Shown piece after piece: positions 4,501 through 56,247 of a stretch of 64,000 nt of DNA; positions within the stretch are counted from its first letter, which is position 1, and each line of letters starts with the position of its first letter. The stretch is from Mobula hypostoma (taxonomy: Eukaryota), in NCBI RefSeq assembly GCF_963921235.1, contig NC_086107.1:102860001-102924000 (forward strand). The letters run 5' to 3'. The position numbers were made by a program, and so were the translations under genes. Below the pieces are notes generated by a model, which was given only the letters and a program-made list of their open reading frames with translations, was not told the origin of the DNA and did not search any database.

Positions 4501-5597
4501 CCATATTGTACTGATCTGTACTGATCTCATTTACCAGCACCGGGCATTAGTGAGGAAGGATTTTAGTTCTGAAAACTAAATAATATCGGCGTGGGTCAAA
4601 GCCAGAGACAGTATGGGCAGAAAATATTGCTGATATTTGCATATACCGACCCCAAAAGATGAAATGTTGGGCAGAGTATAACTCAGGACTTCAGAGGTGA
4701 AAGTAAAAAGGTTAATGAAATAACCATGGGAGATTTTAATCTGAGTAGGGACCAGGAGTCTGAGAATATTAATTCAGTGTGTGTTGAAGAGATAGATCTC
4801 TGGATCATTGTGTTGACAAACCAGTGATGCAAGAGACAATTTTAGATGCAGTCTAATGTTATGAGAAATGATTTATAGATGACCTGCAGCTTAGGGAGCA
4901 GGATTTAATATGATAGCATGTTATTATGAAGATTGAAACTGATCTAGTTCAATCCAACATCAAGGCTGTGAGTTTGCATACATCTAGCAAACTATTAAGG
5001 TATGAGATGCGAAGTTGGTAAGTTGGGAAAATTAATTAATAGGCATTATTGATGCATCTCTCCCCGCTGTTTGTATTCTATATGAGATACCTCAAGAAGC
5101 AACATCCATCATTGAAGATACCCACCATCCAAGCCATGTCATCTTCTCACAGCTACCATGGGGCTGGAGGAGCAGAAGTCCCGAAGACCCATAGCACCAG
5201 GTTTAAAACAGCTACTTCCCTTCAGCCGTCCGCTTCCTGAACCGATCAGCACAGCCCCACCACTACCTCAGTCTAGCAACACTGTCCTGAAGAAGGGTCT
5301 CGGCCCAAAACGCCGACTATCTATACATCTCCATAGATGCTGCCCGACCTGCTGAGTTCCTCTGGCTGTTGCTTTGGATTTCCAGCATCTGCAGAATCTC
5401 TTGTGTTTATAATCAGCAGCAGTATTGACCACTTCGATGTCGTTGCCCTACAATAGATTTTGTTTTTGGTTCTAATTGTATCCCTCCTTGTAAAAACACT
5501 AACAACAGGAATTCTGCAGATGCTGGAAATTCAAGTAACACACATCAAAGTTGCTGGTGAACGCAGCAGGCCAGGCAGCATCTGTAGGAAGAGGCGC

Positions 5598-5633
5598 AGT
5601 CGACGTTTCAGGCCGAGACCCTTCGTCAGGACT
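5598..5633 (-). ncRNA. Minimal hammerhead ribozyme (Penelope-like element terminus)
   Basis: Reverse complement reads AGTC CTGACGA AGGgtctcggCCT GAAA C GTC GACT; core intact. Confidence 0.75.
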
Positions 5634-5696
5634 AACTGAAGGAAGAGTGAGTAAGGGATTTTTACTTGCTCACTCTTACTAACTCTTCCTTCAGTT

Positions 5697-5732
5697 AGTC
5701 CTGACGAAGGGTCTCAGCCTGAAACGTCGACT
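5697..5732 (+). ncRNA. Minimal hammerhead ribozyme
   Basis: AGTC CTGACGA AGGgtctcagCCT GAAA C GTC^GACT; predicted cleavage after 5728. Confidence 0.75.
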
Positions 5733-6846
5733 GCACCTCTTCCTACAGATGTTGCCTGGCCTGCTGCGTTCACCAGCAACTTTGATGTGTGTTGCTTGTA
5801 AAAACGCTGTTTTTTTTTGTGAACACTGCTATGTGTCTGTGGCGCTGCAGCAAGTAAGTTTTTCTTTGAACCTGTGAATGCATGTACCCCAGCACATGAC
5901 CATAATCCTGATTTTGACATAAAGGAATTAACACATAATTTAACCTTAGCTGAATTGAGTACATTACAGACTGGGGGATAGATCTTCAAGTAGGAGTTAA
6001 TCTATTAAAAATGTACAAGTGTCCTGCCGAAGGGTTTCGGCCCAAAACATCGACTGTACTTTTTCCCATAGATGCTGCCTGGCCTGCTGAGTTCCTCCAG
6101 CACTTTGTGTGTGTTGTTTGGATTTCCAGCATCTGCAGATTTTTCTCTTGCTTGTTAAACATTGCTCTTTGGGCTAGACGGATGAAGGAACCTGGGAAAA
6201 AACTGGAACAGGGTACTGAAACTGGATAATTAGCCACGGTTATATACATCTCTCCATTACATTTGCTGTTTACATTTAAACTTTTGGATATATTTTTGCC
6301 ATATACATTTACAAGTTCCTCACATACATTCGCCATACTCGTCTCTGCACATAGTTGGCTCCCCTATACATAGAGTTAAGTGCACCAAGTTTCTGGGAGT
6401 TTACATCATGGATGACCTCATCTGGTTCCTCAATATCACTACCCTGAATAAGAAGGGAGAGCAGTGCCTCCACTTCCTGAGGAGATTGAGGAAAGCAGGC
6501 CCCCCTTCCCACCCCCAACTTAACTAAATTTTACAGGAGCACTGTTGAGAGCATCTTGACAAGTTACATCTCCGTCTGGTATGGAAGCAGCCGACCATCA
6601 GACCGGACATCCTTAAAAGGACTGTGAGAACAGCTGAGAAGATCAGAGCGATCTCCCTACCATCCACTGGGGACATTTATCAGGAGTGCTGTATACACAG
6701 AGCCCTTAGTAATATCAAGGATCCCTCCCACACATCCAGAATCCTCTTTGACTTTCTACCATCAGGCAGGAGACTCCAATGCATAAAGACAAGAACGGTC
6801 AGTATGGGAAACTATTTCCACCCTCAGGCCATTAGGCTTCTGAACT

Positions 6847-7483
6847 AGGCTCTGTCCGCCAGAGAAAGCAGGATCTCCCAGTGGCCACACATTTTAATTC
6901 CACATCCCATTCCCATTCTGATATGTCTATCCACGGCCTCCTCTACTGTAAAGATGAAGCCACACTCAGGTTGGAGGAACAACGCCTTATATTCCGTCTG
7001 GGTAGCCTCCAACCTGATGGCATGAACATCGACTTCTCTAACTTCCGCTAATGCCCACCTCCCCCTCGTACCCCATCCGTTATTTATTTATATACACACA
7101 TTCTTTCTCTCTCTCTCCTTTTTCTCCCTCTGTCCCTCTGACTATACCCCTTGCCCATCCTCTGGGCTTCCCCCCTCCCTCTTTGTCTTTCTCCCTGGGC
7201 CTCCCATCCCATGATCCTCTCATATCCCTTTTGCCTATCACCTGTCCAGCTCTTGGCTCCATCCCTCCCCCTCTTGTCTTCTCCTATCATTTTGGATCTC
7301 CCCCTCCCCCTTCCACTTTCAAATCTCTTACTATCTCTTCTTTCAGTTAGTCCTGACGAAGGGTCTCGGCCTGAAACGTCGACTGTACCTCTTCCTAGAG
7401 ATGCTGCCTGGCCTGCTGCGTTCACCAGCAACGTTTACGTGTGTTGTTTGAATTTCCAGCATCTGCAGATCTCCTCGTGTTTG
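6847..7483 (+). mobile_element. 5'-truncated Penelope-like retroelement (GIY-YIG C-terminus, 3' UTR, hammerhead terminus)
   Basis: 6851-7051 translates SVRQRKQDLPVATHFNSTSHSHSDMSIHGLLYCKDEATLRLEEQRLIFRLGSLQPDGMNIDFSNFR*. 13-bp TSD AGGCTTCTGAACT at 6834-6846 and 7484-7496. Confidence 0.85.
7349..7384 (+). ncRNA. Minimal hammerhead ribozyme
   Basis: AGTC CTGACGA AGGgtctcggCCT GAAA C GTC^GACT, about 300 nt downstream of the GIY-YIG ORF stop; predicted cleavage after 7380. Confidence 0.78.
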
Positions 7484-9213
7484 AGGCTTCTGAACTCTCT
7501 GCCGCATCACATTCAAAGTGTCATCGGATAACTTGTACTGTACCCTACAATATTTAATTTATCCACTTTACTTTGTTTATCTATGCACAATTCATTTATA
7601 GATGTAATTCTTACTTTCCTAAGTTGTTATGTGTTACATGTGTGTTATATATGTGTACTACCGTGCTTCACACCTTGGTCCGGAGAAAAATTGTCTCATT
7701 TGATGGTTTACATGTATATAGTTAAGTGACAATAAACTTGACTTGACTTGACATGTACATTTACAAATTCCTTATGCATTTAAATGTGTAAGGTGAGTAC
7801 AGTTGATGCCTGATGGTGAGACAGACTCAAAGGAGCAAAATGTCTACTCCTTCTATTTTCCACATTTCTGTGGGACTGAATTTATTTTGGACTAAGGAAA
7901 TGGAAGAAAAATCAAATAAGTCAGTTGCATCTGTTTTAATGGGGGGGGGGAAGCAGACAGAAAACCTCTCGAAAAAAGCACAGAACAATAGGCGGAGAGC
8001 GAGTGAGGAGTCAGAGGCTTGCGGCTAGGAACATGTCCTTTGGTCTCTCAGTACAAATACACATCTACATTTATCCCGAGCTAATCCCGCTTTACTTTCT
8101 CCACTTTCCCATCAACTCCGCACAAGTTCCATCACTTTCCTACGCACTAGGGAGATTTACTGTTAGCAATTAATCTCCTAACCTCGAGCAACACACAAAC
8201 ACACACACAGTGCTGAAGGAACTCAACAGGCCAGTCAGCATCTATGAGGAGACATTTCAGGCTAAGACCCTTCTTGTGTTTATAATCTACTAACCTGTTG
8301 AGTTTGGGATGTGGAGGAAACTAGAGCAACTGGGGGAAACCCAAGTAGTCACAGGAGGAGGCTTCGTCAATGGTGCCACACAAATAAATTTAACATTACT
8401 ATTCTTTATACTTTATACTTTATTGTCGCCAAACAATTGATACTAGAACGTACAATCATCACAGCGATATTTGATTCTGCGCTTCCCGCTCCCTGGATTA
8501 CAAAAACATAATTTAGGAGAAATTAATGGAGTTAAATAGGGAGAAGTCCTCACTATCAAATGACCTGCATCCTAATGTTTTGCAGTAAATGGCTATGAAG
8601 ATAACAGATGCTCTGGAATTGGAATTGGTTTACTATTGCCACATGTATGAGATACAGTGTAAAGCTTGCCCTGAATATGGTTCATACTGATCAAATCTTT
8701 ACACGGTGCATTGAGGTAGAACAAGGTAAGCAATAACAGAACGCAGAATAAAGTGTAACAGCTTCAGGGAAAGGGCAGTGGGGGCGGACAGTAAGGTGCA
8801 AGACAACAAGGTAGATTGTGAGCTCAAGAGCCCCACCTTGTACAAAGGAACCATCCAGAAGGCTTACACAGTGAGGAAGAAGATGTCCTTGAGCCCAGCT
8901 TCAGGCTTTTGTATCTTCTGCCAGATGGGAGAGGGGAGAAGGGAGAAAGTCTAGGGTATGAGGGATCTCTGATAATGCTGGCTGCTTTGGTTCAAGTTAG
9001 TCTCTTTCAGTTCCATGTTTTTTTTTCACATTCTGTGGTTTGGCCCATTCTTTTTTGTTGCTATTTGGTGTTATTCGTTAGTTTTTTTTTGGTGTGGGGG
9101 GATTGGGGTTTGGAGTTTAATGTTCTTGCCATTTGCACGATTTGTTTTTTTGCATGGGGGAGGGGGTTTGATGTTCTTGTTGCCGTTTGCATGATTTTTT
9201 TGTGTGGGGGGGT

Positions 9214-10580: not shown

Positions 10581-11429
10581 TAAGGCATCAATAAAAGTTT
10601 GTAAGAATCAGCAAGGGCACGCTAAGTTTTAGCCTGTTCAGGAACTGGAGGCGTGGGTGAGCTTTCTTGGCCATGGTGTCTACATGGCTGGACCAGGACA
10701 GGCTATGGTTATTAGTAATGATCCCTCCTATGGACTTAAAGCTCTCAGTCCTCTTGATGTCAGACCATTGATGGAGCATGTGAACCCCCGCCCCCCGACC
10801 TTCCTAAGGTCTATGGCCAGCTCTTTGGTTTTGCTGACATTGAGGGAAAGGTTGTTATCATGACACCATGTTCCCAAGCTCTCTATCTCCTTCCTGTACT
10901 CTGACTCATCGTTATTTGAGATGCGCCCCACTACGGTCATATTATCTGCAAACTCGTAGGTGGAGTGAGAGCAGAATCTGTTCCCTCAGATATGAACGTT
11001 CAGGGAACAGGGTAGGAGGCTGAGTATGCAGCCTTGATGAGACGGTTTCCAAAATTCCAGGGATTCTGCAACGAATCCCACAGATTGAAATGCTCACTAC
11101 TTAAAGGAGGAAGAGAGAAAATGGGGAATGATAGACTAGAGAGTAACAAATTTGCAGTTGATATGTCCTGATGAAGGGTCTCGGCCGGAAACACCAACTC
11201 CTTATTCCTCTCCATAGATGCTGCCCGACCTGCTGAGTTCCTCCATCATTTTGGAATTCTAATATCTACAGAATCTCTTGTGCTTATGAACCTTACATCA
11301 ATGGTAGGAGAAATGTTGGAACCTATGAAGGAAATAGTAATAGAGGCCTTCGGAAATCAATAGGATTGGGTAAAATCATCATGATTATGTCTTGGCTGTA
11401 AAACCTATTGACGTTACTAAGGATATAAT

Positions 11430-19629: not shown

Positions 19630-20083
19630 ATAGAAGCATAGAAAACCTGCAGCACAACACAGGCCCTTTGGCCCACAAAGCTGTGCTGAACATGTCCTTA
19701 CCTTAGAAATTACCTAGAGTTACCCATAACCCCCTCTATTTTTCTGAGCTCCATGTACTTGTCCAGGAGTCTCTTAAAAGACCCTATCGTATCCGCCTCC
19801 GCCACCGTCGCTGGCAGCCCATTCCACACACTCATCACTCTCTGCATAAAAAAACTTACCCCTGACTTCTCCTCTGTATCTACTTCCAAGCACTTTAAAA
19901 CTGTGTCCGCTCGTGCTAGCCATTTCAGCCCTGGGAAAAAGCGTCTGACTATCCACATGATCAATGCCCCTCATCATCTTATACACCTCTATCAGGTCAC
20001 CTCTCATCCTCCGTCGCTCCAAGGAGAAAAGGCCGAGTCCACTTATCTTATTCTCATAGAGCATGCTCCCCAATCCAGGCAAC
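19630..20083 (-). mobile_element. CR1 3' fragment
   Basis: ORF 19774-20085 LFSLERRRMRGDLIEVYKMMRGID; same family as 59100-59720. Confidence 0.88.
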
Positions 20084-20144
20084 ATTTAATAATAAATGTG
20101 GTTTGAACTTTGAAGCTGTCTTTGTTGAAAATGCAATGCAATAC

Positions 20145-20299
20145 CAGACATCCCACCTCTCCCGGAAGTTCCGGGAGTCTCCCGCATATTAATAGTGACT
20201 CCCTGATGCCCGCAAACTATACACAATATTCCGGAAGTCATTTTTTTGAGAGAGAGAGAGAGCGCGAGAGCGACCACGAGAGGGGAGGGAGGGAGGGAA

Positions 20300-20332
<33 letters not shown>

Positions 20333-20725
20333 CAGAGAGAGACAGAGAGAGAGAGAGACAGAGAGAGAGCACGCACGCGCCATGGCAGAGTTTTCCAAAA
20401 AAAGAAAATATAAAACGTACGTCACCCCAGACTACCCTAAAGTGTACCCCTGCCTAATAGGGGTCAAAAATAATGACTGTGTTGCTGGCTGCACTGTTTG
20501 CAACAGTGACTTTTCTATTGTCCATGGTGGGTTAAGACTGTAAAAGACATGTTGAGGTGAGTTTAACAGGTGCCATTCATTCATTAGCGTAGCTAAAGTT
20601 ATTTAGACTAGCTGGCTAGCTGCTAAGGAGCTACTCTATTGCAGACATCCCACCTCTCACGGAAGTCTCCCGCAAATTGATGGTGCTACCTCCCCGAAAT
20701 GAGTTTTTGTAGGGTGGAATGTCTG
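20145..20725. mobile_element. Non-autonomous DNA transposon (MITE) with 6-bp TSD, internal (GA)n tract and internal extra TIR
   Basis: TIR CAGACATCCCACC / GGTGGAATGTCTG. TSD CAATAC at 20139-20144 and 20726-20731. Second left-TIR copy at 20642. Confidence 0.8.
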
Positions 20726-20975
20726 CAATACAGTACATTTCCCCCATATCTCAGCATTGTCCTCTCCAGCCTCTGCTTCCATGTCCAAGTCAGTAATTTT
20801 CACCAATCCCATCCCAAAATCCACTACTTGTGATTGGCTGTTCATCTTTTGCTCTGGGGATACAGGGATCTGATGACACTGGAACCTGGAGGAACGATAT
20901 GCTGGAGGACTCTGACATAGAGGTCCGACCCAAAACATAGACAATTTCTTTCCTCCCACAGATGCCGCTTGACCT

Positions 20976-21337
20976 CCCCTTCATACCCCATCCATTATTC
21001 ATTTATTATATATATATATTCTCTCTCTCCTTTTTCTCTCTCTCCTTTTTCTCTCTCTGTCCCTCTCACTATACTCCTTGCCCATCCTCTGGGATTCCCC
21101 CCTCTCCCTTTTCTTTCTCCCTGGGCCTCCTGTCCCATGATCCTCTCATATCCCTTTTGCCAATCACCTGTCCAGCTCTTGGCTCCATCCCTCCCCCTCG
21201 CCATCCCACTTTCAAATCTCTTACTAACTCTTCCTTCAGTTAGTCCTGACGAAGGTTGTCGGCCCAAAATGTCAACCGTACCTCTTCCTAGAGATGCTGC
21301 CTGGCCTGCTGCGTTCACCAGCAATTTTTATGGGTGT
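20976..21337 (+). mobile_element. Penelope-like 3' fragment nested in an older Penelope-like terminus
   Basis: Highly similar to 7060-7445, with a decayed hammerhead at 21242-21277. TSD TGCCGCTTGACCT (20963-20975) / TGCTGCTTGACCT (21338-21350). Confidence 0.75.
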
Positions 21338-22289
21338 TGCTGCTTGACCTGCTGAGTTCTTCCAGCAAATTGGTTGTTGTACCCTTCCTTCTGTTGCTGT
21401 CCCACAAGCCACTTCCCTGTACTAGACTTTCAGGTCTTCCTAAACTCTCCTTTAGTCACTGTTTTAAGTCCTCTTTGACCCTCTCATTCTTGCTCTAACT
21501 CACCAACAGAAACCACAAACATTTTCCATAGCACATTATAGTTGTTACAAATATCTCAAAATATAATCTACAGCACACTTATTATTACTTCGATATTATT
21601 GGTTTCTTTTGTAATCCTATGTATTTAATTTTAGATATTTAAACACATGATTGTGGGTAGGGGTCCCTGGGCTTCACCAGACTGCTAAAGAGGTCCATGG
21701 CATAAAAAAGGTTAAGAACTCTTGCTCTAACATCACTCCTCTCAATTCCCCTTAGCTTTAAAACTCTGCACCAAATTTTCAGTAGCAGCCTTTGGAATGG
21801 AATCCCCTGTCCTCAGCATCCAACCTTTACGACTGTGATACGTGGACAACCCCAGCCTAGAGCACCGTGCACCTACTCTTTCTCAAGAGCAGAGTACTCA
21901 TGTTCTGTACTCAACAGCCATCTTGAGATTCTGATTGCGTAATTTTAACTCTGCTTCCCACTCTCATGTGTCTTCACCTTCACCATTGCTAAAGGTCAAA
22001 TGTAAATTGAAAAAAATAAACATCTCAGATCCATTAGGTGGTTTACAATCGAATGAATGGTATGAGCATCAAATTCTACTATTACAAGTAAACCATTCCC
22101 CTGGTGCTCTCCCCCAATAAATTAATGTCCATCTAGATTTCTTCCTCCTTTGTTCACTTTTCCCATCACCCCTTTACCCAGTTGCATCTACCCACCCACC
22201 GCCTGTTCCACGCATTACCTACCAATCTGCGTCTCAGCACCTCCCTCATAGTGCTGTTCCTCTTCCCTCATTCCTGCTGCAGGGCCTCA

Positions 22290-25025
22290 ATAACCATATA
22301 ACCATTACAGCACAGAAACAGGCCATTTCGGCCCTTCTAGTCCGTGATGAACTCTTACTCACACCTAGTCCCACTGACCTGCACTCAGCCCATAACCCTC
22401 CATTCATTTCCTGTCCATATATCTATCCAATTTAACTTTAAATGACAACATCGAACCTGCCTCAGCCACTTCTGCTGGAAGCTCGTTCCACACAGCTACC
22501 ACTCTCTGAGTAAAGAAGTTCCCCCTCATGTTACCCCTAAACTTCTGCCCTTTAACTCTCAACTGATGTCCTCTTGTTTGAATCTCCCCTACTCCCAATG
22601 GAAAAAGCCTATCCGCGTCAACTCTATCTATCCCCCTCATAACTTTAAATACCTCTAACAAGTCCCCCCTCAACCTTCTACGTTCCAAAGAATAAAGGCC
22701 CAACTTGTTCAACCTTTCTCTGTAACTTAGGTGATGAAACCCAGGTAACATTCTAGCAAATCTTCTCTGTACTCTCTCAATTTTGTTGACATCTTTCCTA
22801 TAATTCAGTGACCAAAACTGTACACAATACTTCAAACTTGGCCTCACCAATGCCTTGTACAATTTCAACATTACATCCCAACTCCTATACTCAATGCTCT
22901 GATTTATAAAGGTCAGCATACCAAAAGCTTTCTTCACCACCCTATCCACATGAGATTCCACCTTCAGGGAACTATGCACCATTATTCCTAGATCCCTTTG
23001 TTCTACCACATTCTTCGATGCCCTACCATTTACCATGTATGTCCTATTTTGATTAGTCTTACCAAAATGTAGCATCTTGCATTTATCAGCATTAAACTCC
23101 ATCTGCCATCTTTCAGCCCACTCTTCTAACTGGCCTATATCTCTCTGCAAGGTTGAAAACCTACTTCATTATCCACAACTCCACCTATCTTAGTATCATC
23201 TACATACTTACTCATCCAATTTACCACCCCATCATCCAGATCATTAATGTATATGGCAAATAACATTGGACCCCTTACAGATCCCTGAGGCACACCACTA
23301 GTCACCGGCCTCCAATCTGACAGTTATCCACCACTACTCTCTGGAGTCTCCCACCCAGCCACTGCTGAATCCATTTTACTACTTCAATATTAATACTTAA
23401 CGATTGAACCTTCCTAACCAACCTTCCCTGTGGGACCTTGTCAAAGGCCTTACTGAAGTCCATACAGACAATATCCACCACTTTACTCTCGTCAACTTTC
23501 CTAGTAACCTCTTCAAAAAATTCAATAAGATTTGTCAAACATGACCTTCCACGCACAAATCCATATTGACCCTAATCAGACCCTGTCTATCCAGATAATT
23601 ATATATACCATCTCTAAGAATACTTTCCATCAATTTACCCACCACTGACGTCAAACTCACAGGCCGATAATTGCTAGGTTTACTCTTAGAACCCTTTTTA
23701 AACAATGGATCAACATGAGCAATACGCCAATCCTCCGGCACCATCCCCGTTTCTAATGACATTTGAAATATTTCTGTCAGAGCCCCTGCTATTTCCACAC
23801 TAACTTCCCTCAAGGTCCTAAGGAATATCCTGTCAGGACCCGGAGACTTATCCACTTTTATATTCCTTAAAAGCTCCAGTACTTCCTCTTCTTTAATCAT
23901 CATAGTTTCCATAACTTCCCTACCTGTTTCCCTTATCTTACACAATTCAATATCCTTCTCCTTAGTGAATATCGAAGAAAAGAAATTGTTCAGAATTTCC
24001 CCCATCTCTTTTGGCTCCACACATAGCTGTCCACTCTGATTCTCTAAGGGACCAATTTTATCCCTCACTATCCTTTTGCTATTAATATAACAGTAGAAAC
24101 CCTTGGGATTTATTTTCATCTTGCTTGCCAAAGCAACCTCATATCTTCTTTTAGCTTTTCTAATTCCTTTCTAAAGATTCTTTTTACTTTCTTTATATTC
24201 TTTGAGCACCTCATTTACTCCATACTGCCTATATTTATTGTAGATATCTCTCTTTTTCTGAACCAAGTTTCCAATATACCTTGAAAAACCATGGATCTCT
24301 CAAACTTTTAACCTTTCCTTTCAACCTAACAGGAACATAAAGATTCTGTACTCTCAAAATTTCACCTTTAAATGACCTCCATTTCTCTGTTGCATTCTTC
24401 CCATAAAACAAATTCTCCCAATCCACTCCTTCTAAATCCTTTCACATCTCCTCAAAGTTAGCCCTTCTCCAATCAAAAATCTCAACCCTGGGTCCAGACC
24501 TATCCTTCTCCATAATTATATTGAAACTAATAGCATTGTGATCACTGGACCCGAAGTGCTCCCCAACACAAACCTCCGTCACCTGACCTATCTCATTCCC
24601 TAACAGGAGATCTAACCCTGCCCCTTCTCTAGTTGGTACCTCTATGTATTGCTGCAAAAAACTACCCTGCACACATTTTACAAACTCCAAACCACCCAGG
24701 CCTTTTACAGTATGGGCTTCCCAGTCTATGTGTGGAAAATTAAAATCTCCCACAATCACAACCTTGTGCTTACTACAAATATCTGCTATCTCCTTACAAA
24801 TTTGCTCCTCCAATTCTTGCTCCCCATTTGGTGGTCTATAATACACCCCCATAAGAGTTACTACACCTTTCCCATTCCTCAATTCCACCCAAATAGCCTC
24901 CCTAGACGAGCCCTCTAATCTATCCTGCCAGAGCATCGCTGTAATATTTTCTCTGACAAGCAATGCAACACCTTCCCCTCTTGTCCCTCCGATTCTATCA
25001 CACCTGAAGCAATTAAATCCAGGAA
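22290..25025 (-). mobile_element. CR1 LINE, 5'-truncated, ORF2 (APE endonuclease + RT) broken by frameshifts and stops
   Basis: ORF pieces: GVYYRPP/VIVGDFNFP/FGSSDHNAI (24442-25050), KSPGPD/NYRPVSLTSVVGK (23535-24131), SCLTNLIEFFE/DFSKAFDKV (23302-23556), RRRLRGDL/NFFTQRVV (22404-23150). Short TATGGTTA-type tail at about 22290-22305. Confidence 0.93.
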
Positions 25026-35972: not shown

Positions 35973-36032
35973 GCTGGATATGGTGACTGGGGCAAGGCAG
36001 TGTAGAAAGAGCTTCAGATCTTCAAACAATTC

Positions 36033-36060
36033 CTTAAAAAGGAGAAATGGAAAAGTTAGT
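36033..36060 (-). promoter_or_regulatory. TOB2: 3' splice acceptor of the TOB2 coding exon (exon begins 36032)
   Basis: Minus strand reads ACTAAC (branch point, 36060-36055), then ttttccatttctccttttt, then aAG|GAATTG, 60 nt upstream of the ATG. Confidence 0.88.
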
Positions 36061-42755: not shown

Positions 42756-43823
42756 CACAAACAAGAGGAAATCTGCAGATGCTGGAAATCCAAGCAACAC
42801 ACGCAAAATGCTGGAGGAACTCAGCAAGCCAAACAACTACTATGGAAAACAGTACAAATGACATTTCGGGACAAGACCCTTCAGCAGGACTGGAGAAAAA
42901 AAATGACTCAGAGTTACAAGGTGGAGGGAAGAATTTCTCTTCTGTTTTGCACACGTCTGCCCTCACCCCACCAGGGACAGGATTTGTCTTGTCCTCACCT
43001 ACCACCCCATCAGCCTCCACGTCCAGTACATAATTTTCCACCTGTCCCTCCCCACTAATCTCCCTCCTGGCACTTATCCTTGTAAGCTGAACAAGTGCTA
43101 CACCTGCCCCTACACCACCTCCCTCACTACCAATCAGGGCCGCAAACAGTCCTTCCAGGTGAGGTGACACTTCACCTGAGAGTCTGTTGGGGTCATCTAC
43201 TCTATCTGGTGCTCCTGATGTGGCATCCTGTGTACTGGTGAGACCTGATGTAGATTGGGAGACCACTTTGTCAAGGACCTATGCACCGTCCGCCAGAAAA
43301 AGTGGATCTCCCAGTGGCCAACCATTTTAGTTCCACTTCCCATTCTGACATGTCAGTCCACGGCCTCCTCTAATGTCGCGATTAGGCCACACTCAGGTTG
43401 GAGGAGTAACACTTTATATTCCATCTTGGTAGCCTGATGGCATGAACATCTATTTCTTGAGCTTCCAGCAATGCCCAACCCCACCTTTACCATTCTCTTT
43501 TCCCTCTCACCTCATCTCCTTACCTGCCCATCACCTCCTTCTGGTGCCCGCCTTTTCTTTCTTCCATAACCTTCTGTCTTCTATCAGATTCCTCCTTCTC
43601 CAGCCCTATATCTCTTTCACCAATCAACTTCCCAGCTCTTTACTTCATCCCACCCCCTCCCAGTTTCACCTTGTGTTTCTTCCTCCCCTCTCCCTACCTT
43701 CTAACTCTGACTCTTCATCGTTTTTTCCTCCAGTCCTGATGAAGGTTCTTGGCCTGAAACGTCGACTGTACTCTTTTCCATAGATGCTGCCTGGCCTGCT
43801 GAGTTCCTCCAGCATTTTGTGTG
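42756..43823 (+). mobile_element. Degenerate Penelope-like element (Neptune-like) with inverted 5' terminal segment
   Basis: About 43065-43440 translates PPGTYPCKLNKCYTCPY...HFT*ESVGVIYSIWCS*CGILCTGET*CRLGDHF, a Cys-rich linker plus decayed VIY/YIGET GIY-YIG. 42756-42930 is an inverted copy of the terminus. Possible decayed TSD TCAAATTAGAT / TCAAACTAGTT. Confidence 0.8.
43732..43767 (+). ncRNA. Minimal hammerhead ribozyme
   Basis: AGTC CTGATGA AGGttcttggCCT GAAA C GTC^GACT. Changes versus other copies fall only at N7 and in loop II. Confidence 0.75.
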
Positions 43824-46800
43824 TCAAACTAGTTGGTTTAGTTTAGCCACATTTTCTTCCAACTGAAGAACAGTACTGGCCCTGTCAGAATTAAGCAGAT
43901 CCAGCACCCTGCTGAGCTCCAATTTACTGTCAAATTTCTCCCTTAGGACAGTGAAGGCTACTCCTTGTGCTTGGGTACAGAAGGTTTCAAGTATCTTTTT
44001 CTGCAATGCCATCCTGTCCCGTTTTCTCTCTCCATGTGTCTGTCAGAAGGTTGACAATAAACTATTCTCATTACTCTGCCAAGCATTTGCAAAAGCTGCA
44101 TGTGGGTGACCCAGATTACATCACCTGCTATTTTCTCTTCCTGTAACAACTTCAGCTTTTACAAAGATAGAAAGTTGATCAGCTGAGAAACTTGGAAGTG
44201 CAAATTCACAGCCCATTAACAAGCAATGCAGAGGTGCAGCTTCAGATTAACTCTTCAATTCTAGTGCAGCATCAGAGGAAATGCTCATGTTTTGCAACAA
44301 GACAAAATCACTGATATAAAAACCGAAAGAAAAATGGGTAATCTTTCACCTCGTGATGATCTATTACATCTTGCTTAATTGCATAAGAATTGAGGCTTAA
44401 AACACACAGATAGAAACACATTGAACATACGACTAAAGGGTACAGAAAGGCCATTGCTGTAAACTGGAATCACTATTTGTAACACTAGTATCCAAATGGT
44501 AGACCAGTAACAAAAGTACTTCACTTGCAGAGTAAAATCTTGTCAATGGCTGCAAGAGTCCAAAATTTTAAAGCCCACCTGCCAACTTCAACAAATTCTC
44601 CCCCACCACTTCCCCAATAAGCCCCAAATTCCTCAAAATTCACTTCATAGCTTTCTGCAGATGCTGTGCTGAAAATGATACACAATTCCTAGAATGTCCC
44701 AGCCTGTACATCACCAGGACATCAACAAGAGTAGTGTGGTCCGGAGAAAAGGCTTTTAGTCCTGGTGACTAAGCGTTTGAGAAAAAAAGGGGGTGGGGAG
44801 AGTAGAAAACAATTCCACTTTCCACACCACTTCTCTCACTAGATAAATGCTGTCCTCATTTTCAGAATCTGATTACAGTACGTCACTCTGACACAGCAAA
44901 TGGACACCTATGCTTACTGAATTACACTAGCTCCTGAAATGGTAAATACTTCAAACTTAAATATTTGCCTTGCTTTTTCAGTGCTTCCAGCTCAATCTCT
45001 AAGATTATTTTCACTAATACAACCCACAAATTTGTGCATCTCCAATTTAGCATCTTACAGCCTGATCCAGCCATCTGGCCTCAGAAAATAGTATTCACCC
45101 ACTAAGCTTCAAGATTTTCTTCAAAGCTTTACTGCTGTGCCCTAGGCCTCTAATCATCAGCTCAAGTATCTCCTTATGCAGTTATATGTCAAATTTTGCT
45201 GTGAAATGCCTTGGGGTATTTTGGCAAATTAAGGAGTTCGGATACGTGGCACGGTGGGGGTAGTTGGGTAGAGATCTAAGAGGCAAGAGATAATTTTATC
45301 AGACTTATGAAACTATGTTCCTCAATAAGAACTTGCATACTTTAAAATCATTTTGTATGACTTCTCCATGGCTCCTCTATTTCATTCTCACTCAGTCTAA
45401 TGCCATTTAACCTGGAGCTGTGCTAGTCTAAACGTATATTACATTTCATCTGGAAAATATACGTACCTACATTCTTACCTCTTTCACAGAAATATAAATT
45501 CTATGAATAGCTTAGGCAGCAATATCTTCAATAATCTGAATGACCACCACCCCCCATGAGCAAACTCAGTACTTAAATTGCCACCAGCCACCATATGTAC
45601 CTTCAACACAAGAATACGCTCCAAAACAGCACAACTAACCAAGTCCCACATACAAACAGGTGACCTCAGCTTCATAAATCCACCAGACCAAAGCAATTTA
45701 TCTCAAGCCATTCAATGACTTGAGCTACTCAGTTGCATGGGGTAGAAAATAACAAAGATTCTTAACTGATCTATTTTAATTGTATTTTTATTTTGAAATT
45801 ATGTAGCCCATTTCCACCTTTCCAGTTTCCCCTCAATAGCCCTCAAGGGAATACTCCTTTAGAACTTACCTTGCTTAATGTATAGAAGTTCACCCATTTC
45901 TTCCAATGTTCAAACAAGCACAGGCCAAACAGCTCAACCTGTCCTAAACAATCCCTTTAACCCCAGAATCAAACAAATGAACAAGTCTTAATTACCCCTA
46001 ATGCCAACAAGGAAATATCTATATGCATGACACAATATGGACTCAGTTGTAATGAAACCTTCCTACTTTTATGAACTACCCTTTACGCCACATTGATCAA
46101 CATTCCATAGAGTTCCACACAATATTCTGCTTTCTTATCTTCCCAGCAGACCGGATAGTGTCAGGTGTTCAGGGTCAGATATGTATCCACACAGCTTTGT
46201 AGGCCAAATCTGCTTCAACTTGTTTTCTCCTTTTATCTTTGCACTGTCAGCAAACTTGATAACAATGGCTTCACCCAAGCCACATCCCACTCATTATAAT
46301 TTAGTCATCTGGAAAAGAACTTGTTTACCCAACATAATTTCTCACAGAATATATTAGCCCCAACATCATGATCCATTAGCCCACCCAATAATCTTGTGAA
46401 ATCCATTCAGGTGCCCATGATTCATCCTCAAAGCTGTAAAGTTGATTCACTTTTCATAAAACCATATCAACACTGCTTGATTGTATGAGGATTTTTAAAA
46501 TATCTTGATACTACTCCCTCAATAATTAATTCATATTCTAAATTCCTTTCTCAGAGAGGCATGACATCTGTCATTTCTAATGTGGGACCTTTTAAGAATG
46601 AAGTTAAGGAAGATCTTGACATTGCATCCCCATTAGTAGCCCTGTTTTCCAAATGCTAGGGTGCATTGCATTGGATCCAGAGAATGTGTCAGCTATTAAT
46701 CTTATTTTAGTTTCTTTGCTTCTTTTCTATAGTAACTTTGGTTTGAATACTTCCCTCTACCTTGCTGTGGATTTTTTTTTACTGAAATGTACCAAATGTG

Positions 46801-49800: not shown

Positions 49801-52800
49801 GAAACGCTATTTTGTGTTATAACAGTGTTAAATGCTGCTTTGCTCCCTGCTTTAGAGCAGAGGTAGTCAATCTCTGTGCACACACACAATTATCTTCAGC
49901 ACACTGACTTAGCAACAGATACACAAGGTTTTGATTAGTACTGCCAAATGGTCAATAAAGCCATTGGCATAAAGTCAGAGTTGAAATTTAAAATATTGTA
50001 TACAGGGAAAAAAATTGCATTTCACCACCTATCCACCCCCATTACATCCCCTCCAAGAACACTATGGAAAAGAGCCAGGGATTGAAATAAAGGCTTGCTC
50101 TTACAAACGCCAGCAGTAATAACCTCCCTTCAATGCTTCACAGTTTAGGGTTCCATAGTAATAGGCGGAAACAAGACCTGCTTCTCATTGCACTCTGATG
50201 ACTTCTAAATCAAGACTGCTTACGTTGGGTTGTTGGATAAAAAACAACCTTGCCTGTAATGTCCCCCAACTGAATTTGCTGACATTTGCCAACTCAACAT
50301 CCATACATGCTCTGCTGATCCCAAGAGAAAACGGTCTAATACGGAAGTCAACATTACCAATTTAGTTTTAAATACTTAATAAATTTCAATCTTCCCACCC
50401 TTTAGTAATTATTTGAACCAGAACCCTGGTTTCCCAAAGGAAATTTCTTGTTTTTTCTCACCAATGTTTATCTCTCAGTCCTCAGCTTAACATCACTTTT
50501 CCTCAAAATAAACTTTGCTTTTTTTTTTAAGCTCCTTTTAAAAGGTACAGATGTGAAAAAATTGTAAAGATAAGCACAAAGCTTTGGGAAAATTTCACCT
50601 CATATAAACAGTGTATCATGAATGAACTCTTGTTACATGATTGACATAATATTGTTTTAATTACACAGTTACACCTGCTGTGAAAAGTATACACTGGAAA
50701 AATCATCCCCACCTAGAATTTACTGCCAATTTTGTTCTACTTACACACATTAAACCTGAAGACCCTACACAACAATCAGTAAAAGCAGTTCACACACTTC
50801 TTTGCTTCCACGTTTGAGATCCCTCGCTCTCTTAACATTAACTGACAATCACATGACTGGACATGTCAGTCAGAAGAGTCTGAGATCCCTGCCCCACACC
50901 GGCTACACAAGTAGATTGGACACATGTGACACAAGTGCTCAAAATAGAACTCCTAACAGATATGGAGATCTGGCGAGTAGTTGCAGAACAGGGTCCAGCT
51001 GGTTCATGGAACAGCACAATTGCTGCTCGAGTCTCTAGCAATGGTACCGGTGGTATTTTTGCCCCATATTTATCACGCATTGCAATGTAGTGCTGCCGCT
51101 AAGTTACCAAATTTTACGGCATATGCCAGTGATAGTAAACCAGATTCTGATTCTAATATCATTTGACCTATACTCTACAACATAACCTGTCCATCGTGAG
51201 CAGGCTGAGAAAATAGCCCACCAAGATGTCAGTAATGAAGTTTTGACTGCAAGGGAATCCAAAACTGGGTGGACAAGTAAAAAACGAATAGTAAATCCAC
51301 CAATGCACACAGGAGAAAGCTTGCCTAGAATGCAGAACCAGTCATTGGATGGAGTAATGAGAACCTTAACAGATATTTAAGAGTAAAGCAAAATAGTCTT
51401 TAAGAAATAGAAGGGTGAGAAGGTGGGTGGAGTACAAGCAGCAGGTGGGCTGAGTAATTGGTATCAGTGCTACAGACTAAACAACTATGGAGAGCAGGGA
51501 AAGCAGTTTTTGAACCGGCACACAGTCTTTCATCTGGTGTAACATATTACACCAAAACACTGGCGTTTCTCAACACTCCTGACAAGCTAGGTTGATAGCT
51601 GATGATTTTCAAGGCAAAATCTCCAAAACCAAAGCTGTGGAACTCAAGCCTGCTCTGAAAAATCCAGGGCTGCAGAATGAATAAAGGTGAAGGCAACAGT
51701 CAGTGCTGCAGTACAGCAGCGAGACTAAACAATTGGCAGGACTGATCTCCACCTTTGTTTAGAGTTGATCTCATCAGTGATAATAATGGGGACTGTTGAT
51801 GGCCGAGGTTAGGGAGAAAGTTCTGCTCCTGATAAGCATCTAGCACTTTCTGCTGAAAAGTGCACGTATGTACAACAGATAAGAGCAGGATCAGTTTCTA
51901 CTGCAATGCCCTCTGCTATCAGCTTACCAATATTTACTGCCTAGGCACTTGGGTTTAAAAAAATCCTTTAAAAATTGCAGCTAAACAGTTAGGCAAGGGA
52001 AGGAAAGTGGAATTAAAATCTCTTGACTTTACATACTGAAAAGCCTCCAAGATGAACTAAACACCAAAATGGCAAGATATAGATGAGGAAAGTCTGCAGA
52101 TGCTGGAAATCCAGAGCAACACACAAAATGCTAGAGGAACTCACGCAGCTTCTATGGAAATGAATAGATAGTCAATGTTTCAGGCCAAGTTAGTGATTAT
52201 TCCCTCTAATTGTCATGGGGTGGGGGTAATATTCTGCAAGTCAAAGTCAAATACCTTAATAACAAGCCTCAGACCAGCTCCTAACAATGAAAAATGACCA
52301 GCATCAAGGAGACTATAAGCACTGCAAACTCTGGCAAGCTTAAACAGAATAGCTTACTCTTACTTAGCAGACTGAAACACACCATTAAATGTATCATGTC
52401 ACAACATTTCAGATCTTTAACACAAGTCAGAAGAAAGGAAAACATTTAACTTTCCCCAAGATGCATTTTTACCCCAATTGTGGCTTTTCCTTTCTTTCAG
52501 AGCAGGTTATACAAGCAGTGGAAGAATGAACAATTTACCGAATTTCAATCCATTGGTTTTAAGCAAGCTTCACATTCTTGACAATGTGAAGGACAATGCT
52601 CTCATTACGTCATTCAGTCCCACTCAAAATTCTTCACCCACCATGACCATGATCAACATATGGAAAAGACATCCAGAAAGAGCTCCAAAAATGCAGTCAG
52701 GAGGACACTGTATCTGTGCTGACTCTGCAAGAGACATCTTGTTTGCTCTCCATTGCCCTACCATTTTTCCCTTTATAATATGTATTTAATAGGTATGACT

Positions 52801-55880: not shown

Positions 55881-55894
55881 CGTGCTAGCAACTC

Positions 55895-55995
55895 GGCTCT
55901 GATTGGTTGCTGCCTGAGAAATGACTACTTCTGATTGGTAGGATGCATTGACCAATTGGTTACCGCGTAACTGACGTCACAATCACGTCAGCAAG
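55895..55995 (-). promoter_or_regulatory. TOB2: TOB2 proximal promoter cluster: CCAAT boxes and CRE sites at the CpG-island edge
   Basis: ATTGG at 55902-55906 and 55934-55938 (32 bp apart), palindromic CCAATTGG 55952-55959, perfect CRE TGACGTCA 55972-55979, CRE-like TCACGTCA 55983-55990. Confidence 0.75.
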
Positions 55996-56157
55996 AAAGC
56001 CTTGCATTTATATATCACCTTCCACATCCTTGGGACATTCAAAGTAACTTGCATTTACATATCAACAGGAATTCTGCAGATGCTGGAAATTCAAGCAACA
56101 TACATCAAAGTTGCTGGTGAACGCAGCAGGCCAAGCAGCATCTATAGGAAGAGGTAC

Positions 56158-56193
56158 AGTCGACGTTTCAGGCCGAGACCCTTCGTCAGGACT
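56158..56193 (-). ncRNA. Minimal hammerhead ribozyme
   Basis: Reverse complement is identical to the 7349-7384 motif. Confidence 0.75.
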
Positions 56194-56211
56194 AACTGAA
56201 GGAAATTAGTT

Positions 56212-56247
56212 AGTCCTGACGAAGGGTCTCGGCCTGAAACGTCGACT
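56212..56247 (+). ncRNA. Minimal hammerhead ribozyme
   Basis: Identical to the 7349-7384 motif; predicted cleavage after 56243. Confidence 0.75.

What the first reader, a model, noticed from the sequence alone, without database searches (positions are those of the whole stretch)
5283..56247. Dispersed family of minimal hammerhead ribozymes in Penelope-like termini, predicted to cleave as dimers
Seen: a 36-nt motif AGTC-CTGA(C/T)GA-AGG(7 nt)CCT-GAAA-C-GTC-GACT with an intact core at 5598-5633(-), 5697-5732, 7349-7384, 43732-43767, 56158-56193(-) and 56212-56247. Decayed versions lie at 5283, 6020, 11164, 21242 and about 42855-42890(-). AGTC/GACT is stem I, CUGANGA and GAAA are the catalytic core, AGG/CCT is stem II and GUC is the cleavage triplet. 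Stem III is reduced to the palindrome ACGT with no room for a loop. Two copies sit downstream of a GIY-YIG endonuclease remnant. Established: Penelope-like elements carry such minimal hammerheads, and palindromic stem III forms cleave as dimers. Inference: this is an abundant, recently mobile ribozyme-bearing family (at least 11 motifs in 64 kb) that ordinary annotation would label only as repeat.
Basis: partly seen in the sequence, partly recalled or inferred. Interest (0 to 1): 0.85.

Follow-up and report, generated by a model that had tools for sequence, protein, structure and literature searches.

The report
Penelope-like retrotransposon ends with minimal hammerheads
The repeated 36-base motif is real and is the known minimal hammerhead ribozyme motif carried near the ends of Penelope-like retrotransposons, here in a family with tens of thousands of copies; it is an ordinary, already described kind of element, and its self-cleavage was not tested.

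Summary
Six exact motifs lie at the stated coordinates, against 0 in 100 shuffles, and the five decayed copies are also there.

All belong to 5'-truncated insertions of a Penelope-like element (PLE). [quoted passage not shown] The motif sits about 300 nt after the stop codon and 70-100 nt before the insertion end.

The genome holds 57,484 exact CCTG-type and 19,667 CCCG-type motifs, with 0 reversed-pattern controls.

Three window insertions are head-to-head inverted pairs. Target-site duplications and an arm with or without a roughly 30-nt tail match published PLE anatomy.

Between two diverged subfamilies the hammerhead block is 33/36 identical, against 10/40 upstream.

No covariation, no Rfam hit and no footprint of cleavage was found. 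Energy models favour an inactive fold. Minimal hammerheads in PLEs have been described since 2014, so interest is low.

The parts
6847..7483 (+). 5'-truncated PLE insertion (subfamily A): endonuclease C-terminus, about 300-nt 3'UTR, hammerhead, then about 100 nt of leader/tail. It is flanked by a 13-bp TSD, AGGCTTCTGAACT, at 6834-6846 and 7484-7496.
   Evidence: It inserted just after the stop codon of an L2-like LINE ORF.
6836..7048 (+). Open 71-aa remnant of the GIY-YIG endonuclease C-terminus.
   Evidence: translation. In one search, 149 other genome places match it at 94-97% identity. It aligns to residues 972-1042 of the 1042-aa ORF printed. No Pfam hit on its own.
7349..7384 (+). Intact minimal hammerhead motif. 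Helix I is AGUC/GACU. The core is CUGACGA and GAAA. Helix II is GGGU/GCCU with an unpaired A and a CUCG loop. ACGU is a palindrome that replaces helix III. The predicted cleavage site lies between C7380 and G7381.
7385..7483 (+). Post-hammerhead region: the 5' leader of the next unit in tandem copies. It holds a conserved box, AGATGCTGCC..CTGCTG, and a stem-loop, and ends at the long-form ('tail') end of insertions.
   Evidence: box 21/23 identical between subfamilies. MFE -26.4 kcal/mol, z -2.05, 5 of 200 shuffles as good..
5501..5795 (.). Head-to-head inverted pair of two short 5'-truncated ends (subfamily A). Hammerheads lie at 5598-5633(-) and 5697-5732(+). The left arm has the long tail and the right arm the short end. 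TSD TTGTAAAAAC(A/G)CT at 5488-5500 and 5796-5808.
   Evidence: arms 95.97% identical over 124 nt; sub-threshold matches of miRNA models to the hairpin.
56065..56310 (.). Head-to-head inverted pair (subfamily A). Hammerheads lie at 56158-56193(-) and 56212-56247(+). The left arm has the long tail and the right arm the short end. 16-bp TSD TTGCATTTACATATCA at 56049-56064 and 56311-56326.
   Evidence: arms 97.37% identical over 114 nt; the transcript folds into one hairpin of -226 kcal/mol.
42761..43830 (.). Older head-to-head pair with unequal arms (subfamily B). The short (-) arm is 42761-42929 with a decayed motif at 42855-42890. The long (+) arm, from about 42935 to 43830, has a frameshifted endonuclease remnant (about 42940-43434, including PCKLNKCYTCP) and an intact motif at 43732-43767.
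20972..21339 (+). 5'-truncated end (subfamily A, CCC-type): 3'UTR, a decayed motif at 21242-21277 (GAAA to AAAA; CpG transitions) and the tail.
   Evidence: 80% identical to 7057-7446..
5283..5405 (+). Short unit of an older subfamily that begins at the first bases of the motif. The core is decayed (CCCAAAAC, GCC in place of GUC). It lies inside the 3'UTR of an L2-like LINE.
6020..6145 (+). Short unit (subfamily B) that begins at the first bases of the motif. The core is decayed.
11164..11287 (+). Short unit (older subfamily) that begins at the first bases of the motif. The core is decayed.
8198..8273 (-). Fragment holding the 3' half of the motif and the conserved box.
52089..52189 (-). Fragment holding the 3' half of the motif and the tail.

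Best explanation
The motifs are the terminal parts of insertions of one Penelope-like retroelement family with a Neptune/Nematis-type endonuclease linker.

Shown here:
[quoted passage not shown] In tandem or partial-tandem copies the hammerhead therefore lies in the pseudo-LTR between ORFs.
- Insertions end 70 nt (short form) or about 100 nt (long form with 'tail') after the predicted cleavage site. Every 5'-truncated copy longer than about 130 nt therefore carries the motif, which explains its tens of thousands of copies.
- Insertions have TSDs of 9-16 bp. They are often head-to-head inverted pairs with the tail on one arm only.

Inferred from published in-vitro work on another PLE:
- Reverse transcription starts at two adjacent internal sites in the leader and can be primed on both cleaved DNA strands. 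This would produce the two kinds of end and the inverted pairs.

Inferred from anatomy and analogy:
- In source elements the RNA motif acts as a type-I hammerhead without helix III. It can assemble its core only by pairing the ACGU palindrome and helix I with a second copy (a double hammerhead), probably helped by the element's protein. It would cut after GUC and so process multimeric transcripts.
- Most genomic copies, including those in this window, are dead products that decay neutrally, mainly at CpG sites.
For: Motif and abundance:
- 6 matches in the window, 0 in shuffles.
- 57,484 CCTG-type and 19,667 CCCG-type matches in the genome, 0 for the reversed controls.

Link to the PLE:
- The window remnant 6836-7048 matches 149 other genome places at 94-97% identity. 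Open frames there reach 1042 aa.
- The 1042-aa frame has RVT_1 followed by GIY-YIG in that order (both below Pfam cut-offs). It shows YIDD, PCKRNKCYTCP and GVIYCVQCSRCGLLYIGET.
- It has 1270 relatives at E<=0.001. The 120 listed nearly all carry PF26215, and most also PF00078 and PF28514.
- In L021, L022 and L023 the hammerhead lies about 300 nt after the stop codon.
- 13 of 18 copies that hold the 5' leader have the hammerhead just upstream.

Insertion signatures:
- TSDs are seen.
- Both short inverted pairs in the window have one long-tailed and one short arm.
- L022 shows an inverted pair at kilobase scale.
- These match published PLE anatomy (passages of PMC8557442) and the internal, two-site, two-strand priming reported in PMC11167929 (section 3).

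Conservation:
- Majority sequences of two subfamilies (18 and 19 copies) agree at 33/36 hammerhead positions. They agree at 10/40 upstream, 8/15 in the spacer, 21/23 in the box and 24/37 in the rest.
- The three hammerhead differences fall at N7, at 11.1 (C/U opposite G) and at the outermost helix I base.
- Contigs of four runs labelled as four organisms show variants at >=10% inside the motif at N7, the stem II loop/closing position (7368), 11.1, the CpG positions of ACGTCG, and in one run the last helix I base (7384). None falls in CUGA, GA or GAAA. Loose ends pile up at 7349/7350 and 7386, the edges of the motif.

Architecture:
- The unpaired A after A9, the G10.1:C/U11.1 pair and the palindromic 15.2-16.2 equal the features listed for metazoan PLE min-HHRs in PMC4209133 (main text read).
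Against: - No hammerhead model of Rfam matches: not at gathering scores over the window, nor at E<=10 over 2.4 kb, nor over 66 nt.
- No covariation. 2 cells change on both sides against 3.8 in shuffles, and the covariation score is 0.142 against 0.145.
- Energy models do not favour the active fold. The monomer MFE (-12.2 kcal/mol, z -0.59) pairs GACG of the core with CGUC. The double-hammerhead fold scores -11.1 against -32.7 for the dimer MFE and -24.4 for two monomers.
- There is no genomic footprint of cleavage. 0 of 18 leader-bearing copies start at the cleavage site. No loose-end pile at 7381 is among those listed, though 437 were not shown.
- In the inverted pairs a transcript holds one sense and one antisense motif and folds into a single long hairpin.
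- The conserved box after the motif is as conserved as the motif itself. Conservation alone therefore does not single out catalysis.
- Published activity of such motifs is low, even as dimers (PMC4209133). In the anole element it needs protein and is dispensable for insertion in vitro (PMC11167929).
- The Pfam RVT_1 and GIY-YIG scores of the ORF are below the curated cut-offs.
Confidence: 0.88

Rival explanations
1. The 36-nt block is conserved in source elements for a role other than self-cleavage. It could be part of an internal core promoter or mark the 5' end of the transcript. It could also be a binding site for the element's protein. The hammerhead resemblance would then be vestigial or secondary.
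For: - 5' ends and inversion junctions cluster just upstream of the motif. Of 17 ends within 66 nt upstream in 40 core-intact copies, 8 lie within 9 nt and 4 within 1 nt of its first base.
- Three short window copies (5283, 6020, 11164) and loci L014 and L016 start at its first bases.
- The first bases read TTAGTCC or TCAGTCC, which looks initiator-like. That label is my recollection and comes from no call.
- D. virilis Penelope has an Inr/DPE-type internal promoter in its pseudo-LTR (passages of PMC2377424).
- The active fold is disfavoured. Published activity is low and dispensable for insertion in vitro (PMC11167929).
Against: - Every invariant hammerhead core base is kept in two diverged subfamilies, and all three changes fall at positions the ribozyme tolerates. 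A promoter or protein site does not predict this.
- The same core recurs in PLEs of many phyla, and canonical active forms occur in fungi (PMC4209133).
- In D. virilis the mapped start site lies upstream of an intron that ends at helix I, not at the motif (PMC2377424; PMC4209133).
- The distribution of ends looks more like a gradient than a single spike.
Confidence: 0.15
2. Many of the short units of about 120 nt, and the tandem arrays, are a non-autonomous, retrozyme-like family. The PLE would mobilise it in trans, so these units would not be truncated copies of the autonomous element.
For: - A tandem array of 4.1 units of 310 bp at 99% identity has one hammerhead per unit and lacks almost all of the ORF. 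A second array has 2.0 units of 262 bp (L042 and L043).
- A 2026 preprint argues that animal retrozymes derive from PLE pseudo-LTRs and finds them in its one chondrichthyan species (abstract and passages of 10.64898/2026.07.22.740005).
- Short units with a recurring 5' end were seen.
Against: - The window holds no tandem sense array.
- The short units are collinear with the autonomous element's end and share its two alternative 3' ends.
- 5' ends form a continuum from 0 to more than 900 nt, as expected for truncation.
- The 310-nt unit is an internal deletion of the autonomous element, not a separate lineage.
Confidence: 0.1
3. The motif belongs to the 3' tail of the L2-like LINE whose ORF ends just before the copy at 5283.
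For: The LINE ORF C-terminus at about 5040-5240 is followed within about 40 nt by the motif-like sequence at 5283.
Against: - The genome matches to 5040-5400 listed break at 5283-5285, except one.
- In 9 of 10 other copies of this LINE that were fetched, the 3'UTR continues with unrelated sequence. That sequence resumes in the window at about 5406 and again after 5808.
- The LINE was therefore hit by two separate insertions.
Confidence: 0.01

Closest known systems
Minimal hammerhead motifs (min-HHR) of metazoan Penelope-like elements (Cervera & de la Pena 2014, PMC4209133; the dimer cleavage study of Lunse, Weinberg & Breaker 2017 was seen only as a citation and a one-sentence summary in PMC6765202)
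   Same: - Type-I topology with a 4-bp helix I and the conserved CUGANGA and GAAA boxes.
- An extra unpaired base between A9 and 10.1, and a G10.1:C11.1 pair (here C or U).
- No helix III hairpin, with a palindromic 15.2-16.2.
- Location in the pseudo-LTR.
- Dispersed, mostly single, truncated copies, plus pairs on opposite strands 100-700 bp apart.
   Different: - Helix II is short: 4 pairs including two wobbles plus a tetraloop, against 7-8 bp in the Schistosoma families.
- Copy number is about tenfold higher than the roughly 4,000 (coelacanth) and 9,000 (Xenopus) reported there.
- The dominant young subfamily has U at 11.1.
- Activity was not tested.
Poseidon element PAc of Anolis carolinensis (Frangieh et al. 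2024, PMC11167929)
   Same: - RT plus GIY-YIG ORF, tandem pseudo-LTR layout, and a hammerhead in the pseudo-LTR.
- Insertions end at two neighbouring internal sites about 30 nt apart downstream of the hammerhead (the 'tail').
- Both DNA strands are used, which fits the inverted pairs.
   Different: - In PAc the ORF starts inside the hammerhead and the cut site is 26 nt after the start codon. Here the first Met lies roughly 200 nt after the cut site.
- The linker here has the CX4CxxC motif, which Penelope/Poseidon lack according to PMC8557442.
- No biochemistry was done here.
Neptune/Nematis clades of EN+ PLEs (Arkhipova 2006, as summarised in PMC8557442)
   Same: - C-terminal GIY-YIG with two Cys between GIY and YIG.
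- A CX2-5CxxC zinc-finger-like linker.
- Partial tandems, inverted 5'-truncated copies, a 30-40 bp tail and variable TSDs.
   Different: Clade assignment rests only on motifs read by eye. No phylogeny with reference elements was made, and Repbase and Dfam were not available.
Animal non-LTR retrozymes (Cervera & de la Pena 2020, PMC7229834, search listing only; Li, Clavereau & Pollet 2026 preprint, abstract and passages)
   Same: Tandem arrays of short units, each with one type-I hammerhead, derived from PLE pseudo-LTR sequence. Such arrays are present elsewhere in this genome.
   Different: The window copies are dispersed singles or inverted pairs, not sense tandems. No circular RNA evidence was obtained.

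Membership tests
Hammerhead ribozyme (general definition) | Conserved core: C3 U4 G5 A6 N7 G8 A9, G12 A13 A14, A15.1-U16.1, H17 | tested here: met
   All are present in the six intact window copies. In the wider sample, 10 of 25 copies from arbitrary genome regions and 6 of 12 window copies keep the core.
Hammerhead ribozyme (general definition) | Three helices around the core, including an intramolecular helix III | tested here: not met
   Helices I (4 bp) and II (4 pairs) can form. Helix III cannot, because ACGU has no loop. It is possible only between two copies.
Hammerhead ribozyme (Rfam covariance models) | Match to an Rfam hammerhead model | tested here: not met
   No hammerhead match at gathering scores or at E<=10 over 2.4 kb or 66 nt.
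Hammerhead ribozyme (general definition) | Site-specific self-cleavage after H17 | not testable with these tools
   No raw RNA reads were available. There is no genomic footprint: 0 of 18 copies start at the site.
PLE minimal hammerhead (Cervera & de la Pena 2014) | No helix III or loop 3, with a palindromic 15.2-16.2 that allows a dimeric extended helix III | tested here: met
   ACGU. Across 36 distinct copies, A:U forms in 32 cells and C:G or U:G in 28.
PLE minimal hammerhead (Cervera & de la Pena 2014) | Unpaired nucleotide between A9 and 10.1, and a G10.1-C11.1 pair | tested here: met
With the A unpaired, the closing pair is G:U in 18, G:C in 13 and A:U in 1 of 36 copies, and helix II is paired in 88.2% of cells. 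Genome-wide there are 19,667 C-type and 57,484 U-type motifs.
PLE minimal hammerhead (Cervera & de la Pena 2014) | Covariation or compensatory changes within consensus families | tested here: not met
   No excess over shuffles among 36 distinct copies of this genome. Copies are too alike and differ mostly by CpG decay.
PLE minimal hammerhead (Cervera & de la Pena 2014) | Location in the pseudo-LTR of a PLE | tested here: met
   The motif lies about 300 nt after the ORF stop in L021-L023. It lies directly upstream of the 5' leader in 13 of 18 leader-bearing copies.
Penelope-like elements (EN+) | Single ORF with an RT followed by a C-terminal GIY-YIG endonuclease | tested here: met
   The 1042-aa open frame has RVT_1 at residues 534-696 (24 bits, cut-off 29.6) and GIY-YIG at 945-1019 (18.4 bits, cut-off 22.6). 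Motifs were read. It has 1270 relatives at E<=0.001. The Pfam scores are below the curated cut-offs.
Penelope-like elements (EN+) | CCHH motif with two Cys between GIY and YIG, and a CX2-5CxxC linker (Neptune/Nematis) | tested here: met
   Read by eye: VIYCVQCSRCGLLYIG and PCKRNKCYTCP. The window remnant has PCKLNKCYTCP. No profile or tree was used.
Penelope-like elements (EN+) | Partial tandems (pseudo-LTRs), an adjacent inverted 5'-truncated copy, a 30-40 bp tail at one end, and a variable TSD | tested here: met
   TSDs are 9, 13, 13 and 16 bp. The long and short arms differ by about 30 nt.
Non-LTR retrozymes | Sense tandem arrays of short hammerhead-bearing units | tested here: not met
   None in the window. 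Present elsewhere in the genome: 4.1 x 310 bp and 2.0 x 262 bp.

The most novel reading that the evidence does not exclude
Many of the short motif-bearing units and of the palindromic pairs may not be 3' ends of the element. They may instead be run-off copies of its 5' leader. In this reading, reverse transcription starts at the internal sites in the leader, on one or both cleaved DNA strands. It then runs about 100-130 nt to an RNA 5' end lying at or within about 20 nt upstream of the first hammerhead base.

This would place the transcript start, or another RNA-end-forming event, at the edge of the ribozyme. It would also make these elements a genome-wide source of near-perfect 250-300-bp hairpins.
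Probability: 0.2. Interest if true: 0.5.

Novelty: new member of a known kind. Interest (0 to 1): 0.25.

Why it matters
It matters little beyond annotation. The finding shows that one PLE family contributes tens of thousands of intact minimal hammerhead motifs to this 3.5-Gb genome, invisible to Rfam-based annotation. That is about ten times the counts first reported for coelacanth and Xenopus.

The family offers clean natural material for open questions about PLEs:
- young inverted pairs with one tailed arm;
- tandem 310-nt arrays;
- open 1042-aa ORFs.

With these one could ask whether the hammerhead cleaves in vivo, whether both DNA strands prime reverse transcription, and where the transcript starts. 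None of this overturns current views.

Tried and rejected
- **LINE-tail idea.** I considered that the motif is part of the 3'UTR of the L2-like LINE at 5040-5283. Rejected: other copies of that LINE continue with unrelated sequence.
- **Rfam.** No hammerhead hit at any threshold. The only matches were sub-threshold miRNA-family models on the 5616-5714 palindrome, best 48.5 bits against a gathering score of 91.
- **Covariation across 37 copies.** None above shuffles.
- **Cleavage footprint at 5' ends of leader-bearing copies.** 0 of 18 start at the site. One full-length copy (L021) starts 7-8 nt after it.
- **Expression.** No RNA holder listed. All runs offered were contigs of unrecorded library type, so starts, ends and expression could not be read.
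- **Solved structures.** No match to the ORF.
- **Earlier notes of this scan.** None.
- **Genome-wide count of head-to-head pairs.** The only figure is from the first 100 places listed: six (-)/(+) pairs less than 100 nt apart, read by eye.
- **Lunse et al. 2017.** Not held.
- **Supplements of PMC4209133.** The motif strings and 'shark' were not found in the 2 text files held. File 1 could not be searched, so related fish or shark motifs may be shown there.
- **Literature on PLE hammerheads in cartilaginous fish.** The listings showed none, apart from the 2026 preprint's single chondrichthyan species. PMC8455134 lists Penelope among whale-shark repeats.

Full report
**1. The observation**

It occurred in none of 100 dinucleotide-preserving shuffles. 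Reading the DNA shows the flanking AGTC and GACT in all six.

A blastn of the unit 7300-7470 against the window finds 13 places, the query itself among them.

Rfam reports nothing at gathering scores for the whole window. It reports no hammerhead model even at E<=10, for 5200-7600 or for the 66 nt around one motif.

**2. What the copies belong to**

Upstream of the motif at 7349 lies an open 71-aa frame (6836-7048) that ends in ...LGSLQPDGMNIDFSNFR. Upstream of the motif at 43732 lie frameshifted pieces that include PCKLNKCYTCP. The two regions are 69% identical over about 600 nt.

The window's own assembly is held (3.48 Gb; the window is C45:102860001-102924000). Searching it with the 71-aa piece gave 150 scored matches out of 158,830 first-look candidates. 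Apart from the window's own place, these are 94-97% identical, some within open frames of up to 1042 aa.

I fetched three of the longer copies. L021 has a 1042-aa open frame. RVT_1 covers residues 534-696 and GIY-YIG covers 945-1019. Both score below Pfam's curated cut-offs, at 24.0 against 29.6 bits and 18.4 against 22.6 bits.

Its translation shows YIDD, a CX4CxxC linker and VIYCVQCSRCGLLYIG, that is, two cysteines between GIY and YIG. According to passages of PMC8557442, this combination marks canonical EN+ PLEs of the Neptune/Nematis type.

A database search with residues 420-1042 found 1270 proteins at E<=0.001 among 8000 scored. The 120 listed nearly all carry PF26215, and most also PF00078 and PF28514; some have PF01541 as well. 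The best named ones are shark proteins at 69-72% identity. No solved structure matches.

**3. Anatomy of the element**

In L021, L022 and L023 the hammerhead lies about 300 nt after the stop codon. L021 is bounded by a 9-bp TSD. About 70 nt that follow the motif at its 3' end are repeated at its 5' end, before the leader and the ORF.

A 27-nt stretch of the leader occurs 529 times in the genome with at most one mismatch, with 0 in the reversed control. I fetched 18 of these places.
- 11 continue upstream through a sense hammerhead into 3'UTR-like sequence.
- One sits in an inverted pair and one in a complex duplication. In all, 13 of 18 have the motif upstream.
- The remaining five are truncated downstream of it.

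The motif therefore sits in the pseudo-LTR between the ORFs of tandem or partial-tandem copies, as published for PLEs (PMC4209133; PMC6765202).

**4. Why the motif is so abundant**

Insertions end either about 70 nt after the predicted cleavage site (...GTGTGTTGC) or about 100 nt after it (...CAGAATTCCTGTT). This is seen. Any 5'-truncated copy longer than about 130 nt therefore contains the motif.

The genome has 57,484 exact CCTG-type and 19,667 CCCG-type motifs, with 0 for both reversed controls.

In 200 kb taken at round-number coordinates I found 36 family fragments.
- 25 cover the motif.
- 10 keep the core.
- 5 match the exact pattern.

The window has 14 fragments in 64 kb, an ordinary density. 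Its six exact motifs compare with about one expected.

**5. Insertion signatures in the window**

- The copy with the motif at 7349 spans 6847-7483 and has a 13-bp TSD. It sits just after the stop codon of an L2-like LINE ORF.
- Two insertions, 5501-5795 and 56065-56310, are head-to-head inverted pairs of short ends. Their TSDs are 13 bp (12 of 13 identical) and 16 bp.
- In both pairs the left arm carries the long end and the right arm the short end. The arms are 95.97% (124 nt) and 97.37% (114 nt) identical.
- A third, older pair with unequal arms spans 42761-43830.
- L022 shows the same inverted layout at kilobase scale.
- Among the first 100 places listed, I count by eye six (-)/(+) pairs less than 100 nt apart.

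Published PLE anatomy reads the same way: an inverted 5'-truncated copy next to the element and a 30-40-bp tail at one end only (PMC8557442). The anole element starts reverse transcription at two adjacent internal sites, and it cleaves and extends both DNA strands in vitro (PMC11167929). That this family works the same way is an inference.

**6. A lead that failed**

The copy at 5283 follows a LINE ORF C-terminus by about 40 nt, which suggested a LINE tail. The genome matches to 5040-5400 listed break at 5283-5285, except one. In 9 of 10 other copies of the LINE that I fetched, the 3'UTR continues with unrelated sequence, and that sequence resumes in the window after the insertion. The LINE's 3'UTR simply received two PLE insertions.

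**7. Subfamilies and conservation**

The copies fall into at least two groups with different tails. Relatives of that group elsewhere in the genome share CUGAAGA, CCC(G/A)AAAC and often GCC in place of GUC.

I compared majority sequences of 18 subfamily-A and 19 other copies.

| Region | Identical positions |
|---|---|
| Upstream of the motif | 10 of 40 |
| Hammerhead motif | 33 of 36 |
| Spacer | 8 of 15 |
| Box AGATGCTGCC..CTGCTG | 21 of 23 |
| Rest of the tail | 24 of 37 |

The three differences inside the motif are at N7, at 11.1 (C or U) and at the outermost base of helix I.

Contigs of four public runs, labelled as four organisms with library type unrecorded, hold 106 to 6182 matching pieces each. 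Variants seen in at least 10% of depth inside the motif lie at:
- N7;
- position 7368 (stem II loop/closing position);
- 11.1;
- the CpG positions of ACGTCG;
- in one run, the last helix I base (7384).

None lies in CUGA, GA or GAAA. Loose ends pile up at 7349/7350 and at 7386, the two edges of the motif.

It also shows that the box after the motif is equally conserved. Within subfamily A the copies look neutral: mean match to the majority is 0.95 in the motif, 0.98 in the box and 0.90 in the spacer.

**8. Structure**

On 36 distinct copies there is no covariation beyond shuffles. Two cells change on both sides against 3.8 in shuffles, and the covariation score is 0.142 against 0.145.

The C/U variation before GAAA discriminates between the two registers of helix II.

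| Register of helix II | Closing pair, of 36 copies | Helix II cells paired |
|---|---|---|
| A after A9 unpaired | G:U 18, G:C 13, A:U 1 | 88.2% |

ViennaRNA also chooses the first register. That register equals the published PLE min-HHR features: an extra base between 9 and 10.1, a G10.1-C11.1 pair and a palindromic 15.2-16.2 (PMC4209133).

Energetically the active fold is not favoured.
- The monomer MFE (-12.2 kcal/mol; z -0.59; 52 of 200 shuffles as good) pairs GACG of the core with CGUC.
- A correctly nested double hammerhead scores -11.1 kcal/mol. The dimer MFE is -32.7 and two monomers give -24.4.
- A transcript of an inverted pair folds into one hairpin of -226 kcal/mol.

This agrees with published results. 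Activity in vitro is low even for dimers (PMC4209133). Cleavage is protein-assisted and dispensable for insertion in the anole element, and no RNA-seq ends were found at the site there (PMC11167929).

**9. Cleavage evidence**

There is none. No copy of the 18 begins at the cleavage site. L021 begins 7-8 nt after it.

**10. Seen on the way**

- A tandem array of 4.1 units of 310 bp (99% identical), each with one hammerhead and lacking nearly all of the ORF, and a 2.0 x 262-bp array, exist elsewhere in the genome. They resemble animal non-LTR retrozymes, which a 2026 preprint derives from PLE pseudo-LTRs. They would supply the sense-sense arrangement that dimer cleavage needs.
- In 40 core-intact copies taken in listing order, 22 read through for at least 60 nt upstream. 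One further copy (L078) served as the reference and also reads through by eye. The other 17 end or invert within 66 nt: 8 within 9 nt, and 4 within 1 nt, of the first motif base. Two of the computed values are doubtful by eye.
- Three short window copies, and L014 and L016, start at the first bases of the motif.
- This clustering is unexplained. It may mark an RNA 5' end near the motif, or it may only reflect a steep truncation gradient.

**11. Verdict**

The phenomenon was described in 2014 for PLEs of many animals, including fishes. This family is a very abundant new example. The helix II register needs a small correction, and catalysis is unproven.

Noticed in passing
L042 (G000:C2:157816300-157818300) and L043 (G000:C2:122542400-122543500): Sense tandem arrays: 4.1 units of 310 bp (99% identical) and 2.0 units of 262 bp. 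Each unit holds one hammerhead, the leader and the first part of the ORF. They resemble animal non-LTR retrozymes.
   Followed up: partly
Window 5283, 6020, 11164; loci L014, L016, L064-L103: 5' ends and inversion junctions cluster within about 20 nt upstream of the first hammerhead base, several exactly at it. Of 17 ends within 66 nt upstream, 8 lie within 9 nt. The cause is unknown; it could be a transcript start, run-off of leader copies, or a truncation gradient.
   Followed up: partly
Window 5616-5714: The apex of the inverted pair gives sub-threshold matches to several miRNA-precursor models (best 48.5 bits, gathering 91). This is a palindrome artefact, but such pairs could yield small RNAs.
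   Followed up: no
Window 35058-36098 (-): A 346-aa open frame with a BTG domain (E 7.6e-39) and a PAM2 motif (E 2.8e-08): a TOB-like gene in one exon.
   Followed up: no
Window 5040-5283, about 5406-5500 and 5809-5920; also 6234-6845, 390-869(-), 24442-25077(-): Fragments of L2/CR1-like LINEs, with an ALKBH8_N-type hit at 390-869(-) and an AP endonuclease at 24442-25077(-). One LINE 3'UTR was hit by two separate PLE insertions, and another PLE inserted right after a LINE stop codon.
   Followed up: partly
Window 7385-7483 and the same region of other copies: The leader after the hammerhead folds into a stem-loop (AGATGCTG...CAGCATCT enclosing CAGCAAC...GTTG). MFE is -26.4 kcal/mol, z -2.05. 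The short insertion end falls inside it and the long end just after it, so it is a candidate site for the start of reverse transcription.
   Followed up: partly
Window 3193-4579 (+) and 20000-24000: Three overlapping open frames of 274-401 aa have only weak DUF3432 hits. A GA/CT-rich low-complexity tract lies near 20100-20450, and GC skew reaches -0.33 in 20001-24000.
   Followed up: no
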